IMG/VR virus record: IMGVR_UViG_3300039330_000027
Source: a virus
Lineage: Duplodnaviria; Heunggongvirae; Uroviricota; Caudoviricetes
Length of the DNA: 24,108 bases
Direction: 5' to 3' (one strand)
A program made the position numbers and the translations under genes. Under the pieces are notes generated by a model. It did no database searches and was not told where the DNA came from. It saw only the letters and a list, made by a program, of their open reading frames with translations. Of this stretch, positions 1-6,670 are shown piece by piece; positions within the stretch are counted from its first letter, which is position 1, and the number at the start of each line of letters is the position of its first letter.

Positions 1-235
1 ACATAATCTGTCGCGAGTGCCGGAAGAGTGAAGTTATGCAGCGCATATTGTCGTTTTATCAGGGTGATGTTCGGTATTTATTGAAGTGACGAGATTAAAG
101 TGCATTAGTTCAGATGCAAATTGACATTTTGTGGCACAGGGTAGAGCTAGCGTGGTTGTCCGCTTTGTGCCAACAGCGGACATTATAGATGGTATATGTA
201 GAAAGTGAACATGCGTAGATTGTATGATTTAGCCG

Positions 236-1045
236 TCACTTAATTATTGGATAACTCACACAAGTATGACCGTTGCTTATCGCATACATTTGGTTTCCCT
301 TAAGATTTACAAATGGAAATGTCGTATACTCATAATTTATAGAGGTCATATTAAATGTAAGGAATTTATCCTCAAGTTCTAATTTTGTAGAGTGGGCAGG
401 GTATGTTCCTTCATTTTTCATTGTGATAATAAAACCGATAGGAAAAAAATGTAAAGCACAAATAAATGCCACATGTCCTTCGTTCATAAATGCTACACTT
501 TGAGCGGATATGTGCATTCTGTGTGGGTAAAACCAGTAGTAAATATCATGAGTTTCCTCAAAACTTGAATTTTTACCCAAAACATAATCCTTTAAAGGTG
601 TATAGAAGGGGCTATCTACGGGTTCTTTTTTACAATCTTCAACTGAAGTTGCTGATAGCACGTGCCCAATCATAGCCTTAGTGAAAGATATGCTATCAAA
701 AGGTATTCTAATGAATGGATATACATTCATACCATTCATATATCGACTTAACTGTTCTTTAAAGGACTTTGTTACATTTTCAATTGCAACATCGAGCCCA
801 CCTAATACCTTATTGTTACAGTGGCTGCAAATGGTTCTGAAATAAGAGCCATTTTTAGCATTTAATGGTTTAACTGGTTCCTGAATACCAAAAAATTCGC
901 TAACTGTTTTCTGCAAAACAGGGCCTAAGGTTATGGCGCACTTTGGAGGAACATGATCTTTTGTGAGCAAGCCATATTTCCCACAAATATTGCAATAACC
1001 TTCAGTAATGCCATTGTGCTTCCATCGTTCACTAATTTTCGTCAT
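236..1045 (-). CDS. Hypothetical protein with an N-terminal HNH-like zinc-finger nuclease motif (CxxC...DHxPP...CxxC) and a C-terminal domain of about 190 aa of unknown function
   Basis: 269-aa ORF on the minus strand in a markedly AT-rich block. RBS GAGGGA lies 6 nt upstream of the ATG at 1045. Motifs CNICGKYGLLTKDHVPPKC and CSHCNNK resemble an HNH core. No recognisable phage structural role. Confidence 0.6.
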   Translation of the reverse strand: MTKISERWKHNGITEGYCNICGKYGLLTKDHVPPKCAITLGPVLQKTVSEFFGIQEPVKPLNAKNGSYFRTICSHCNNKVLGGLDVAIENVTKSFKEQLSRYMNGMNVYPFIRIPFDSISFTKAMIGHVLSATSVEDCKKEPVDSPFYTPLKDYVLGKNSSFEETHDIYYWFYPHRMHISAQSVAFMNEGHVAFICALHFFPIGFIITMKNEGTYPAHSTKLELEDKFLTFNMTSINYEYTTFPFVNLKGNQMYAISNGHTCVSYPIIK

Positions 1046-1368
1046 TTTTATTCCCTCAGTAGCATAAGCTATCTATACGTTTTTTAATCCTATCAAAGAT
1101 ACAACTTAACGTCAGGAAAATGATAGTGTTTATCTAAGTAATACAATTAACTTCAACGCGTGACAGTCTGCTTTTCGCTCAAAGCGGACTAGAAGGTTAG
1201 CTTGCGTCGGACTTGGCGTATTTAAAGAAGTGCTGGTGGTGACTGGTTGTTGTGTTCCATTTCTACAGAACAAAATCACAGAAACTATACCCAATAGTTG
1301 TATCTCATCAATGATGAGACAGCCTCATATTTATCAGAACTGGTGTACGTCCAATACAGGAGGTTGTC

Positions 1369-1458
1369 GTGCTGGTTCTCAAATGTGCGCTGGCTATTGC
1401 AGCTGTAATGGCAATTTATTGTCTTGCTGTTGTTCTTATGGATCGCTTTTCTGATTGA
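1369..1458 (+). CDS. Putative small hydrophobic peptide (29 aa, MLVLKCALAIAAVMAIYCLAVVLMDRFSD), possible type I toxin-like membrane peptide
   Basis: GTG start at 1369 is preceded by a canonical AGGAGG Shine-Dalgarno at 1358-1363 (5-nt spacer). The single predicted transmembrane helix ends in a charged tail. Below the 60-aa cutoff of the ORF track. Confidence 0.3.
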   Translation: MLVLKCALAIAAVMAIYCLAVVLMDRFSD

Positions 1459-1612
1459 TTTTATATTGGCGAGGTAACGGGAGTTAAGTAGAATGGCTGC
1501 GGGTGCTTGAGGCTATCTGTCTCAGGCATGAACACCAAAGGCAGATAGAGAAAAGCCCCAGTTAACATTACGCGTCCTGCAAGACGCTTAACATTAATCT
1601 GAGGCTCAATCT

Positions 1613-1825
1613 ATGAACGGCAAATCTAGGTTAGCCTCTTACGTGCCGAAAGGCAAGGAGAAGCAGGCTATGAAGCAGCAAAAGGCGATGTTAATCGCCC
1701 TGATCGTCATCTGTTTAACCGTCATTGTGACGGCACTGGTAACGAGGAAAGACCTCTGCGAGGTACGAATCCGAACCGGCCAGACGGAGGTCGCTGTCTT
1801 CACAGCTTACGAACCTGAGGAGTAA
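1613..1825 (+). CDS. mok: Mok-like overlapping reading frame (N-terminally extended form of Hok, modulator of killing)
   Basis: 70-aa ORF in the same frame as hok. The extension MNGKSRLASYVPKGKEKQA has the same pattern as the remembered E. coli MokC extension (KEKRAMKQ versus KEKQAMKQ here). Confidence 0.55.
   Translation: MNGKSRLASYVPKGKEKQAMKQQKAMLIALIVICLTVIVTALVTRKDLCEVRIRTGQTEVAVFTAYEPEE
1670..1825 (+). CDS. hok: Hok/Gef family type I toxin (small membrane-depolarising peptide), 51 aa
   Basis: Translation MKQQKAMLIALIVICLTVIVTALVTRKDLCEVRIRTGQTEVAVFTAYEPEE matches the Hok/Gef family and, from memory, is essentially identical to E. coli HokD (RelF). Confidence 0.85.
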   Translation: MKQQKAMLIALIVICLTVIVTALVTRKDLCEVRIRTGQTEVAVFTAYEPEE

Positions 1826-1892
1826 GAGACCTGGCGGGGGAGAAATCCCTCGCCACCTCTGATGTGTCAGGCATCCTCAACGCACCCGCACT

Positions 1893-1916
1893 TAACCCGC
1901 TTCGGCGTTTTTTCCG
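1893..1916 (+). terminator. Possible intrinsic terminator or hok mRNA 3' structure (GC hairpin with TTCG loop followed by TTTTTT)
   Basis: Sequence aacccgcttcggcgttttttcc lies downstream of the hok stop. The stem is short, so this could instead be part of the hok 3' fold-back (fbi) element. Confidence 0.35.
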
Positions 1917-1968
1917 TTGATTAACTCTAGTTATTAGAGAACCGAACTTTTATTGATGGGGCAGGGAG

Positions 1969-2361
1969 ATGAAGAAACTTGTTTTAGTCGCAGGTGTAAT
2001 GATTGCAACAGTAATGTTGGGAGGGTGTGCAGCAAAGATCGATCCAGCGTTGAAAGCAGAAGCAATGAAGCCACTAACATGTAATGATGAAAAGCAATGT
2101 GACTTTTATTGGAAACGAGCGCAATTCTGGTTGGCTAATAATTCCTCATGGAAAATTCAAACGGCGACAGACACGCTAATTTCCACTTATAATCCCTCTC
2201 CAAATAGTCCATTCCTCGCTTATCAAGTGAGTAAAATGCCAAATGAAGATGGATCCTCAAGAATTTTCATCAAGCCTTTTTGCGATAATATGTTTGGCTG
2301 TCAACCAAACCCCTATCAGGCAGTTGTTTCCTTTAAAAACTTCGTTAAAACAGGGCAGTAG
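1969..2361 (+). CDS. Putative secreted lipoprotein of unknown function (Cys-rich mature domain)
   Basis: 130-aa ORF with an N-terminal signal peptide and lipobox (MKKLVLVAGVMIATVMLGGC, Cys at position 20). The mature part contains four more Cys. AT-rich codon usage suggests an accessory (moron) gene. Confidence 0.7.
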   Translation: MKKLVLVAGVMIATVMLGGCAAKIDPALKAEAMKPLTCNDEKQCDFYWKRAQFWLANNSSWKIQTATDTLISTYNPSPNSPFLAYQVSKMPNEDGSSRIFIKPFCDNMFGCQPNPYQAVVSFKNFVKTGQ

Positions 2362-2560
2362 TGTATAGCTTGGACGATAAATTATTAGTGAAAACGCCGT
2401 AAACCCTCACCCAATGTGGACTAAGCCTATCAAACATGACTGTGATGATTAGTCCGTAGTTGTTGCCTATGAAATCTGGATTGAGTCAGGGTTTAATCCA
2501 ATAATTATTCTATCGTTCCTTTACAAGTCCGGTATATTACTTTCAGTTTGTTTTAGCATA

Positions 2561-6360: not shown

Positions 6361-6436
6361 GGCCCTTTAGCTCAGTGGTGAGAGCGAGCGACTCATAATC
6401 GCCAGGTCGCTGGTTCAAATCCAGCAAGGGCCACCA
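6361..6436 (+). tRNA. ileZ: tRNA with CAT anticodon, most similar to tRNA-Ile2 (lysidine type, ileX/ileZ-like); tRNA-Met not excluded
   Basis: Manual cloverleaf: acceptor ggccctt/aagggcc, D-arm tagctcagtggtgagagc, anticodon loop cTCATAAt, T-arm gctggTTCAAATccagc, encoded CCA. Resembles the remembered E. coli ileX. Confidence 0.8.
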
Positions 6437-6437
6437 A

Positions 6438-6514
6438 CCGCCACTAGCTCATCAGGAAAGAGCGTCAACCCTTTAAGTTGAGTGTGCGAGGTTCGAGTCC
6501 CCGGTGGCGGTCCA
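6438..6514 (+). tRNA. tRNA-like gene with atypical anticodon loop CCTTTAA (probably Lys-UUU-like but with C at position 33); assignment uncertain
   Basis: Folds into a cloverleaf: acceptor ccgccac/gtggcgg, D-stem gctc/gagc, anticodon stem tcaac/gttga, T-arm cgagg-TTCGAGT-ccccg (one mismatch), discriminator T, encoded CCA. The anticodon loop lacks the usual U33. Confidence 0.5.
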
Positions 6515-6516
6515 GT

Positions 6517-6592
<76 letters not shown>

Positions 6593-6595
6593 TAT

Positions 6596-6670
<75 letters not shown>

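What the first reader, a model, noticed from the sequence alone, without database searches (positions are those of the whole stretch)
1480..1916. Complete mok/hok type I toxin locus without relBE, with a hairpin flanked by 9-nt direct repeats in the leader
Seen in sequence: the hok ORF (1670..1825) carries an in-frame upstream mok-like extension (from 1613). The leader contains a hairpin gcgtc-ctgcaa-gacgc (1572-1587) flanked by the direct repeat ttaacatta (1562-1570 and 1588-1596). No relB or relE precedes it within the window. Established knowledge: in the E. coli Qin prophage, hokD is the third gene of relBEF and lacks its own mok/sok, whereas plasmid and chromosomal hok loci have a mok frame and a Sok antisense RNA covering the mok start. 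Inference: this prophage may carry an autonomous hok/sok-type module, with a Sok-like antisense RNA expected on the minus strand around 1560-1630. The minus strand has a weak promoter-like TTGCCT-N17-TAACCT reading into the mok start.
Basis: partly seen in the sequence, partly recalled or inferred. Interest (0 to 1): 0.5.

Follow-up and report, generated by a model that had tools for sequence, protein, structure and literature searches.

The report
Ordinary prophage hok/mok/sok toxin–antitoxin locus
This is a complete, very common and already characterised hok/sok-type (hokD/hokW) RNA-controlled toxin–antitoxin cassette of E. coli lambdoid prophages, and the "hairpin flanked by 9-nt repeats" is just the long terminator stem-loop of its antisense Sok RNA.

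Summary
The hok ORF is at 1670-1825 and an in-frame mok extension starts at 1613. The hairpin is at 1572-1587, and exact 9-nt repeats lie at 1562-1570 and 1588-1596. No relBE is present.

Rfam's hok/sok model matches 1501-1675 at 110 bits (cut-off 59). Hok matches Pfam HOK_GEF and is identical to K-12 HokD. The full-length locus occurs in 4019 of 5426 complete E. coli genomes, where it is annotated hokD.

It is 93% identical to hokW-sokW of Stx2 phage Sp5. For that locus, the Sok RNA (71 nt of complementarity), its promoter and the antitoxin activity were shown experimentally (PMC8621323). The window's sok promoter is identical to Sp5's.

The 9-nt repeats are the two arms of the Sok terminator stem. 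They pair through G·U wobbles on the minus strand only (-28.3 versus -18.7 kcal/mol). The apical stem shows compensatory changes in other genera.

Predicted folds reproduce the published hok mRNA switch, tac/fbi changing to tac/ucb. K-12's relBE-hokD is the truncated exception.

Verdict: already known, low interest.

The parts
1466..1494 (+). Predicted hok mRNA promoter, TTGGCG-17-TAGAAT
   Evidence: Consensus scan gives 9 of 12 matches. It ends 7 nt before the conserved GGGTGCTTGAGG 5' end. The AGTTAAGTAGAAT stretch is conserved in alignment A1.
1501..1912 (+). Predicted full-length hok mRNA (5' end and 3' end both inferred)
   Evidence: Rfam RF01794 position 1 aligns to 1501. The 412-nt fold has z = -6.7. 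The 3' end is inferred from the T-run after a remnant terminator.
1501..1512 (+). tac (translational activator) element, GGGUGCUUGAGG
   Evidence: It pairs with 1875-1887 in the full-length fold and with 1553-1559 in the 3'-truncated fold. It is invariant in all 9 full-length loci aligned; K-12, which lacks the leader, is the only row that differs.
1553..1561 (+). ucb (upstream complementary box, the anti-SD of mok)
   Evidence: It pairs with the mok SD region 1599-1606 in the full-length fold and with tac in the truncated fold.
1554..1606 (.). On the minus strand it is the Sok terminator stem; on the plus strand it is the ucb/mok-SD stem-loop.
   Evidence: Stability is -28.3 kcal/mol on the minus strand versus -18.7 on the plus strand. 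The minus strand is the more stable in 31 of 31 distinct hok-family hairpins. The apical stem has compensatory pairs.
1601..1604 (+). mok Shine-Dalgarno sequence, GAGG
   Evidence: It lies 8 nt upstream of the ATG at 1613. It is sequestered by ucb in the full-length fold and paired to dcb in the truncated fold.
1613..1825 (+). mok reading frame (70 aa, in frame with hok)
   Evidence: ORF list. The ATG is present in 114 of the 115 locus copies tallied. The frame relative to hok varies: 92 in frame, 17 out of frame.
1633..1638 (+). dcb (downstream complementary box), AGCCUC
   Evidence: It pairs with the mok SD region 1601-1606 in the truncated fold. This matches the Rfam consensus helix.
1655..1660 (+). 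hok Shine-Dalgarno sequence, AAGGAG
   Evidence: Read from the sequence. It is paired in the full-length fold and mostly free in the truncated fold.
1670..1825 (+). hok toxin gene (51 aa, identical to HokD WP_000813254.1)
   Evidence: Pfam HOK_GEF scores 82.9 bits. RefSeq annotates the identical sequence as hokD.
1875..1887 (+). fbi (fold-back inhibitory) element, CCUCAACGCACCC
   Evidence: It pairs with tac in the minimum-energy fold. Inverted repeats I6 and I2 support the same pairing.
1897..1912 (+). Remnant of the hok terminator (CCCGCTTCGGCG followed by T6)
   Evidence: There is no significant hairpin here (z = 0.36), whereas the BL21 allele folds at -12.8 kcal/mol. This tail is seen in 7 of about 100 loci.
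1628..1656 (-). sok promoter: -35 TTGCCT (1656-1651), 17-nt spacer, -10 TAACCT (1633-1628)
   Evidence: It is identical to the Sp5 sokW promoter, whose -10 was mutated experimentally (PMC8621323; mapping). The position is conserved as TTGACC/TAATCT in other genera.
1551..1621 (-). Predicted Sok antisense RNA (about 71 nt): a 5' tail opposite the mok start, then a long terminator hairpin and a U-tract
   Evidence: The fold is -34 kcal/mol with z = -5.8. Its length matches the 71-nt complementarity reported for sokW. The sokW Northern probe corresponds to window 1592-1621. The exact ends are inferred.

Best explanation
Window 1466-1912 is an intact hok/mok/sok type I toxin-antitoxin cassette of the hokD/hokW lineage. 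It sits in the early-right (nin-like) region of a lambdoid prophage.

Proposed mechanism, step by step:

1. The plus strand gives a stable hok mRNA of about 410 nt starting at about 1501.
2. In the full-length mRNA the 5' tac element (1501-1512) pairs with the 3' fbi element (1875-1887). The ucb box (1554-1561) occludes the mok SD. The mRNA is therefore silent and Sok cannot bind it.
3. Slow 3' trimming removes fbi. Tac then pairs with ucb, the mok SD shifts onto dcb (1633-1638), and mok is translated. Hok translation follows by coupling.
4. The minus strand makes a short unstable Sok RNA (about 1621 to 1551) from TTGCCT-N17-TAACCT. Its 5' tail covers the mok start, and the duplex is cut by RNase III.
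5. When Sok synthesis stops (prophage induction, loss of the element, or transcription shut-off), Hok is made and depolarises the inner membrane.

TAATGTTAA is a wobble palindrome, so the two arms read as a direct repeat in DNA while pairing through G·U in the minus-strand RNA.

What is shown here: the family membership, the anatomy, the alternative pairings (in silico) and identity to an experimentally validated sok promoter. What is inferred: the transcript ends, 3' processing, toxicity and the biological role in this particular prophage.
For: - Family models: Rfam RF01794 covers 1501-1675 at 110 bits against a cut-off of 59. Pfam HOK_GEF scores 82.9 bits.
- Relatives: 93% identity to Sp5 hokW-sokW. 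For Sp5, toxin activity, the antitoxin RNA, its promoter, and partial RNase III and Hfq dependence were shown (PMC8621323).
- Promoter: the published primers and probes map to the homologous positions, and the promoter is identical.
- Conformational switch: the full-length fold pairs tac with fbi and ucb with the mok SD. The truncated fold pairs tac with ucb and the mok SD with dcb. This is the switch described for plasmid R1 (PMC9841398).
- Hairpin strand: -28.3 kcal/mol on the minus strand versus -18.7 on the plus strand. The minus strand is the more stable in 31 of 31 distinct hok-family hairpins, mean difference -9.5 kcal/mol.
- Covariation: two compensatory pairs in the apical stem (GC to AU, UA to CG), and a G·U in HB-Coli0 that would be an A·C mismatch on the plus strand.
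- mok: the ATG is conserved in 114 of 115 copies, but its frame relative to hok varies. This fits a role in translational coupling rather than as a protein.
- Distribution: full length in 4019 of 5426 E. coli genomes.
Against: - There are no expression data for this particular locus.
- The sok promoter is weak against the consensus. The generic scan does not list it, and its -10 matches only 3 of 6 positions.
- The hok terminator is truncated in this allele, so the 3' end of the mRNA is uncertain.
- Chromosomal hok loci tested earlier did not give post-segregational killing (cited in bioRxiv 10.1101/2025.08.07.668861).
- All folds are thermodynamic predictions.
- The Sok 5' tail differs at 9 positions from the tested Sp5 allele.
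Confidence: 0.9

Rival explanations
1. The locus is structurally intact but is a silent relic. It does not kill or stabilise anything in its host, as was reported for several chromosomal hok loci.
For: [quoted passage not shown] The hok terminator is truncated in this allele.
Against: - Every regulatory element is intact and conserved.
- The Hok peptide is identical to HokD, which was used as a toxic control.
- The 93%-identical Sp5 locus is functional although its sequence after fbi also differs from the common terminator.
- Retention at full length in about 74% of complete E. coli genomes, with compensatory changes, argues for selection.
Confidence: 0.08
2. The 9-nt direct repeats flanking a small inverted repeat are a target-site duplication or footprint left by a mobile element in the hok leader.
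For: An exact 9-bp repeat flanks a 17-bp segment that has 5-bp terminal inverted repeats. Rfam aligns the segment as a 16-nt insertion relative to its consensus.
Against: - The repeats pair with each other in the minus-strand RNA through G·U wobbles, forming one continuous helix.
- The extension is conserved in E. coli phages, P1-like plasmids, Pseudocitrobacter and Kluyvera, with compensatory changes.
- The short-hairpin allele (PPompW) is not an empty site. It has a different sequence.
- No transposase or longer element is associated with it.
Confidence: 0.02
3. The apical extension is selected mainly for the hok mRNA (plus strand), for example as part of the Sok target or anti-SD stem-loop, rather than for the Sok terminator.
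For: On the plus strand the base of the same hairpin is the ucb/mok-SD helix that silences mok. The plus-strand hairpin is also significantly more stable than shuffled sequence, z = -5.0.
Against: Pairs that are G·U on the minus strand become A·C mismatches on the plus strand. The minus strand is more stable in 31 of 31 variants. The HB-Coli0 change keeps the pair only on the minus strand. The two roles are not mutually exclusive.
Confidence: 0.1

Closest known systems
hokW-mokW-sokW of Stx2 phages Sp5/VT2-Sakai and 933W (Takada et al. 2021, PMC8621323)
   Same: 93% nucleotide identity over 417 nt. The architecture is the same, with an identical sok promoter and an identical extended hairpin apart from one loop base. 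Both sit in a lambdoid prophage, and both have a 70-aa in-frame mok.
   Different: The Hok C-terminus differs...VFTAYEPEE here versus ...VFVDYESEK in Sp5. Nine bases differ in the Sok 5' tail, which overlaps mok codons 2-5. The sequence after fbi and the neighbouring genes also differ.
hokD (relF) of the E. coli K-12 Qin prophage, in the relB-relE-hokD arrangement
   Same: The HokD peptide is identical (WP_000813254.1), as are the 3' UTR and fbi. The downstream neighbourhood is of the same type: rem and DUF968 (ydfU).
   Different: K-12 homology begins only at about window 1656. K-12 therefore lacks the hok promoter, tac, ucb, mok and the sok gene, and has relBE in their place. The window carries the complete ancestral-type locus.
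hok/sok (parB) of plasmid R1, the archetype
   Same: It has the same set of elements (tac, ucb, mok SD, dcb, fbi, antisense Sok with its promoter inside mok) and the same predicted full-length/truncated switch.
   Different: HokW and R1 Hok are only 44% identical. From my own knowledge, not tested here: R1 mok is out of frame with hok, Sok is about 64 nt, and the Sok hairpin is about 12 nt shorter. The R1 system sits on a plasmid and acts in post-segregational killing.
hokC/mokC (gef) and other chromosomal hok loci of Enterobacteriaceae
   Same: They belong to the same Hok subfamily (RKDLCEV...RTGQTEVAVFTAYE) and have a related leader.
   Different: They have a short Sok hairpin, with 18-24 nt between AAGCCCC and GAGGC against 41 nt here. 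They occupy fixed chromosomal positions rather than prophages.

Membership tests
[quoted passage not shown] | Small Hok/Gef-family membrane toxin ORF | tested here: met
   Pfam PF01848 scores 82.9 bits against a cut-off of 22. The peptide is identical to RefSeq HokD. NCBIfam Hok models match below their strict cut-offs.
[quoted passage not shown] | Upstream overlapping mok frame with its own SD, through which hok is translated | tested here: met
   The ATG at 1613 has GAGG 8 nt upstream, and the frame runs through hok. The ATG is kept in 114 of 115 copies while the frame varies. Translational coupling itself cannot be tested here.
[quoted passage not shown] | Antisense Sok gene opposite the mok start, with its promoter inside the mok/hok leader and a stem-loop terminator | tested here: met
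   The promoter is identical to the experimentally mutated Sp5 sokW promoter. The terminator hairpin plus U-tract folds with z = -5.8. The structure is specific to the minus strand and shows covariation.
[quoted passage not shown] | Sok RNA is actually transcribed and neutralises Hok | not testable with these tools
   This was shown only for the 93%-identical Sp5 locus, by Northern blot, a promoter-less mutant and trans-complementation (PMC8621323).
[quoted passage not shown] | Long-range 5' tac / 3' fbi pairing that closes the full-length mRNA | tested here: met
   1501-1512 pairs with 1875-1887 in the minimum-energy fold. A 9-nt perfect inverted repeat joins 1498-1506 and 1882-1890. Both elements are almost invariant, so there is no covariation to count.
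[quoted passage not shown] | Alternative tac/ucb and mok-SD/dcb helices in the 3'-processed mRNA | tested here: met
   The truncated fold (1501-1872) pairs 1501-1508 with 1553-1559 and 1601-1606 with 1633-1638. The same helices appear in the Rfam consensus structure. This is an in-silico result only.
[quoted passage not shown] | Match to the curated covariance model of the hok leader / sok region (Rfam RF01794) | tested here: met
   110 bits against a gathering score of 59, E = 1.5e-24, full model length.
relBE-hokD operon arrangement (K-12 Qin) | relB and relE immediately upstream, hokD without its own leader, mok or sok | tested here: not met
   There is no relBE in the window or in the nearest genome's left flank. 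The complete leader is present here, whereas K-12 homology starts at about 1656.
Transposable-element footprint / target-site duplication | Direct repeats flank an insertion that is absent from otherwise identical empty sites and recurs elsewhere | tested here: not met
   The segment is part of a conserved helix with compensatory changes across genera. The short allele is not an empty site. The 9-mer occurs nowhere else in the window.

The most novel reading that the evidence does not exclude
The hokD/hokW lineage has two distinctive features: an extended, wobble-rich Sok terminator helix, and a hypervariable patch of about 12 nt at the Sok 5' end (mok codons 2-5). These might act as specificity or stability determinants that let several co-resident prophage hok/sok copies work without cross-neutralising each other. 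E. coli genomes that carry the locus have a median of 2 and up to 10 copies.

The supporting evidence is thin. The entropy peak does lie at 1611-1620, and 23 patch variants exist. Of two same-genome pairs that I could check, one had identical patches and one had different patches.
Probability: 0.15. Interest if true: 0.35.

Novelty: already known. Interest (0 to 1): 0.1.

Why it matters
It matters little as a discovery. The locus is annotated as hokD in thousands of RefSeq genomes, and its close homologue hokW-sokW has been studied experimentally.

The useful outcomes are clarifications:

- The complete locus, not K-12's relBE-hokD, is the normal form.
- The hairpin with its 9-nt direct repeats is explained as a G·U wobble-palindromic Sok terminator stem.
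- Rfam's "sok" model is built on the hok-sense strand. Its consensus runs 5' to 3' through the hok SD to an AUG. A plus-strand hit therefore marks the hok leader, not the Sok transcript itself.

Tried and rejected
1. Transposon footprint or target-site duplication for the 9-nt repeats. Rejected: the repeats are helix arms, conserved with covariation across genera.

2. Generic sigma-70 scan for the sok promoter. It does not list TTGCCT/TAACCT. The promoter is accepted only because it is identical to the experimentally mutated Sp5 promoter.

3. Loose pattern scan of genome contigs.
- The N{10,40} gap was one base too short to catch the 41-nt window-type hairpin.
- It also pulled in about 35 unrelated Planctomycetota/Kuenenia hits with fixed 40/10 spacing. 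These have no hok ORF and no tRNA.
- The enterobacterial hits were still usable for the strand-asymmetry test.

4. Insulation between co-resident copies. Only two same-genome pairs could be identified, one identical and one different. This is inconclusive.

5. Pfam and NCBIfam searches of the neighbouring ORFs (236-1045 minus strand, 1369-1458, 1969-2361). Nothing was found.

6. The entropy profile is biased to zero at 1583-1605 and 1631-1642, because the viral-contig pattern fixed those bases. Only the unconstrained segments can be compared.

Full report
**Observation**

The sequence features are all present as described.
- The ORF listing gives a 70-aa ORF at 1613-1825. Its last 51 codons, from the ATG at 1670, are the hok frame, so the mok-like extension is in frame.
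- TTAACATTA occurs exactly twice in the 24-kb window, at 1562-1570 and 1588-1596. Chance expectation is 0.19, and 2 of 100 shuffles reached two copies.
- The two copies flank GCGTC-CTGCAA-GACGC at 1572-1587.
- No relB or relE is present. The only sizeable upstream ORF is a 269-aa ORF on the minus strand with no family match.

**What it is**

- Rfam RF01794 ("sok") matches 1501-1675 on the plus strand over its whole length, at 110 bits against a gathering score of 59, E = 1.5e-24.
- The consensus of that model runs through the hok Shine-Dalgarno sequence to an AUG. The model is therefore written in the sense of the hok mRNA leader. The Sok transcript itself lies on the opposite strand.
- The 51-aa product matches Pfam HOK_GEF at 82.9 bits. 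It is identical to RefSeq HokD, WP_000813254.1.

**Distribution**

- The 437-nt region is found in 4943 of 5426 complete E. coli genomes, and at 80% or greater coverage in 4019 of them.
- Genomes that carry it have a median of 2 and up to 10 places. 535 of the places are on plasmids. All are annotated hokD or Hok/Gef.
- Among phages it occurs in 110 records, mostly lambdoid and Stx-converting phages plus P1-like elements. There it is annotated MokW, HokD, gef or "host killer".
- In K-12 (BW25113) homology starts only at query position 177, about window 1656. That point is just upstream of the hok SD, and relB-relE occupies the place of the leader.
- In the closest genome (JP538, 99.2% identity over window 1-2400) the left neighbours are CI-like, Cro, YdaT and DUF977 genes. 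The right neighbours are DUF968, RusA, Q, four tRNAs and the lysis genes. There is no relBE.
The complete locus is the rule and K-12 is the truncated exception.

**Experimental anchor**

The locus is 93% identical over 417 nt to the hokW-sokW locus of VT2-Sakai/Sp5 (locus L002). Takada et al. 2021 (PMC8621323) reported the following for Sp5:
- HokW is toxic.
- sokW RNA, expressed from its own promoter, neutralises it.
- A promoter-less mutant becomes toxic and is rescued by sokW in trans.
- sokW has 71 nt of complementarity to the hokW 5' UTR.
- Antitoxin activity depends partly on RNase III and Hfq.
- sokW disappears on mitomycin C induction, HokW then accumulates in the inner membrane, and deleting the locus halves phage release.

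I mapped their oligonucleotides onto L002 and the window:
- The sokW Northern probe corresponds to window 1592-1621.
- The -10 mutation (TAGGTTA to CCGGCTC on the plus strand) corresponds to window 1627-1633.
- From 1628 to 1660 the window is identical to Sp5.

With a start about 7 nt after the -10, a 71-nt Sok runs from 1621 to 1551. It ends right after the UUUU that follows the terminator stem.

**The hairpin and the 9-nt repeats**

- On the minus strand, 1606 to 1554 folds into one long helix: GAGCCUCAG, a bulged A, UUAAUGUUA, an A/G mismatch, GCGUCU, the loop UGCA, and then the complementary arms.
- The sequences UUAAUGUUA and UAAUGUUAA pair through two G·U wobbles. The DNA of the two arms therefore reads as the same 9-mer twice, that is, as a direct repeat.
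- On the plus strand those positions are A·C mismatches and the helix is interrupted. Stability is -18.7 kcal/mol on the plus strand against -28.3 on the minus strand.
- Across 31 distinct hok-family hairpins from Escherichia, Klebsiella, Citrobacter, Rahnella, Erwinia, Pantoea, Aeromonas and others, the minus strand is the more stable in 31 of 31. The mean difference is -9.5 kcal/mol.
- The distance between AAGCCCC and GAGGC is bimodal. It is 18-24 nt in most hok loci and 38-41 nt in the hokD/hokW clade, which includes Pseudocitrobacter and Kluyvera relatives.
- In that clade the apical stem shows compensatory changes: GCGTC/GACGC to GCGCC/GGCGC and to ACGTC/GACGT. One single change is a G·U only on the minus strand.
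- The element is conserved in 8 of 9 full-length E. coli and phage loci that I aligned. PPompW phages carry a shorter, different hairpin.
- It is therefore a lineage-specific extension of the Sok terminator stem-loop, not a mobile-element footprint.

**mRNA switch**

- The minimum-energy fold of 1501-1912 (z = -6.7) pairs 1501-1512 (tac) with 1875-1887 (fbi). It also pairs 1554-1561 (ucb) with 1599-1606 (mok SD), and it pairs the hok SD.
- Removing the last 40 nt (fold of 1501-1872) re-pairs 1501-1508 with 1553-1559 (tac/ucb). It moves the mok SD (1601-1606) onto 1633-1638 (dcb) and largely frees the hok SD.
- This is the full-length/truncated switch described for R1 hok mRNA (PMC9841398).
- A plausible hok promoter, TTGGCG-17-TAGAAT, ends 7 nt before 1501.
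- These are thermodynamic predictions. Tac and fbi are nearly invariant, so covariation cannot be counted for them.

**Variation among copies**

I collected 101 distinct full-length loci, 115 copies tallied, from loci already fetched and from viral contigs.
- The mok ATG is kept in 114 copies.
- mok is in frame with hok in 92 and out of frame in 17. This fits a coupling role rather than a protein function.
- The highest sequence entropy in the locus is at 1611-1620, which covers mok codons 2-4 and the Sok 5' end. There are 23 patch variants, and the window's variant is among the commonest.
- Whether this variability insulates co-resident copies from one another is untested. Of two same-genome pairs, one was identical and one was different.

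**Caveats for this allele**

- The hok terminator is truncated: AACCCGCTTCGGCG|TTTTTT, where most alleles have AACCCGCTTCGGCGGGTTTTT. No significant hairpin remains, and the tail is shared by 7 of about 100 loci.
- The functional Sp5 allele also has a different sequence after fbi, so this need not inactivate the locus.
- The generic promoter scan does not pick up the sok promoter.
- Some chromosomal hok loci were reported as inactive in post-segregational killing assays.

**Comparison and novelty**

- The locus meets every testable defining feature of the hok/sok family. It fails the relBE-hokD arrangement test.
- It is a member of the hokD/hokW group, which is already annotated genome-wide and characterised experimentally in Sp5.
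- Enrichment of hok in prophages has also been documented (bioRxiv 10.1101/2025.08.07.668861).
- The wobble-palindrome reading of the repeats, worked out here and not checked against the literature, is a minor structural note.
- Verdict: already known, interest about 0.1.

Noticed in passing
window 1893-1925, compared with L004 1905-1945: The hok terminator is truncated in this allele (CCCGCTTCGGCG|TTTTTTCCG, where most alleles have CCCGCTTCGGCGGGTTTTT). The break appears to sit at a mosaic junction, with a 130-aa ORF with a lipoprotein-like signal sequence (1969-2361) replacing rem downstream. Seven of about 100 loci share this tail. Read-through into 1969-2361 is possible.
   Followed up: partly
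window 1369-1458 (+): A 29-aa hydrophobic ORF (MLVLKCALAIAAVMAIYCLAVVLMDRFSD) starts with GTG and has AGGAGG a few bases upstream. It lies just upstream of the hok promoter. RefSeq annotates it as a hypothetical protein in strain HB-Coli0 (WP_000960667.1). It has no Pfam or NCBIfam match. It could be another small membrane peptide.
   Followed up: partly
window 1572-1587, compared with L006 and L009: In RM10410 and PhiR12_3 the 16-nt apical hairpin is GCGTCTTGCAGGACGC. This is the exact reverse complement of the window's GCGTCCTGCAAGACGC. The pattern fits either two loop-edge substitutions or a hairpin inversion by template switching.
   Followed up: no
window 1611-1627: This is the most variable patch of the whole locus across 101 distinct copies, with 23 variants. 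It coincides with mok codons 2-5 and the Sok 5' end and discriminator. The flanking promoter and hairpin are nearly invariant, although part of that invariance was imposed by the search pattern.
   Followed up: partly
window 1613-1672, and L005 and L007: The mok frame relative to hok is not conserved. A 1-nt insertion (GGTCAAGG) in the P1-like and HB-Coli0 alleles puts mok out of frame with hok. HB-Coli0 has also lost the mok ATG (ATA).
   Followed up: partly
window 1808-1811: The Hok Tyr47 codon sits in a UACG context. This is the motif reported for TadA A-to-I editing (Tyr to Cys) in hokB, hokC, hokD and hokE mRNAs, as summarised in bioRxiv 10.1101/2025.08.07.668861. A second UACGAA lies at 1764-1769 (direct repeat D3).
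   Followed up: no
window 1501-1675 (Rfam hit): Rfam RF01794, named 'sok antitoxin', matches the hok-sense strand, and its consensus ends in the hok SD and AUG. A hit therefore marks the hok leader rather than the strand of the Sok transcript.
   Followed up: yes
window 6361-6670: A cluster of four tRNA genes (CAT, Lys-TTT, Thr-TGT, Gly-TCC) lies between the Q antiterminator region and the lysis genes. The CAT tRNA is called Met by ARAGORN but Ile in the RefSeq annotation of the related strain JP538.
   Followed up: no
window 236-1045 (-): A 269-aa ORF with several CxxC motifs lies on the opposite strand, immediately left of the hok locus. It has no Pfam or NCBIfam match. This slot differs between prophages: a SEC-C protein in AR_0089, a DUF4145 protein in HB-Coli0. 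It looks like a variable cargo position next to hok.
   Followed up: partly
L019, L021, L025 and about 30 other Planctomycetota/Kuenenia loci: The loose hok-leader pattern also hit a recurrent 73-nt stretch with fixed 40/10 spacing in Planctomycetota MAGs. It has no hok ORF and no tRNA. It is probably an unrelated conserved sequence.
   Followed up: partly
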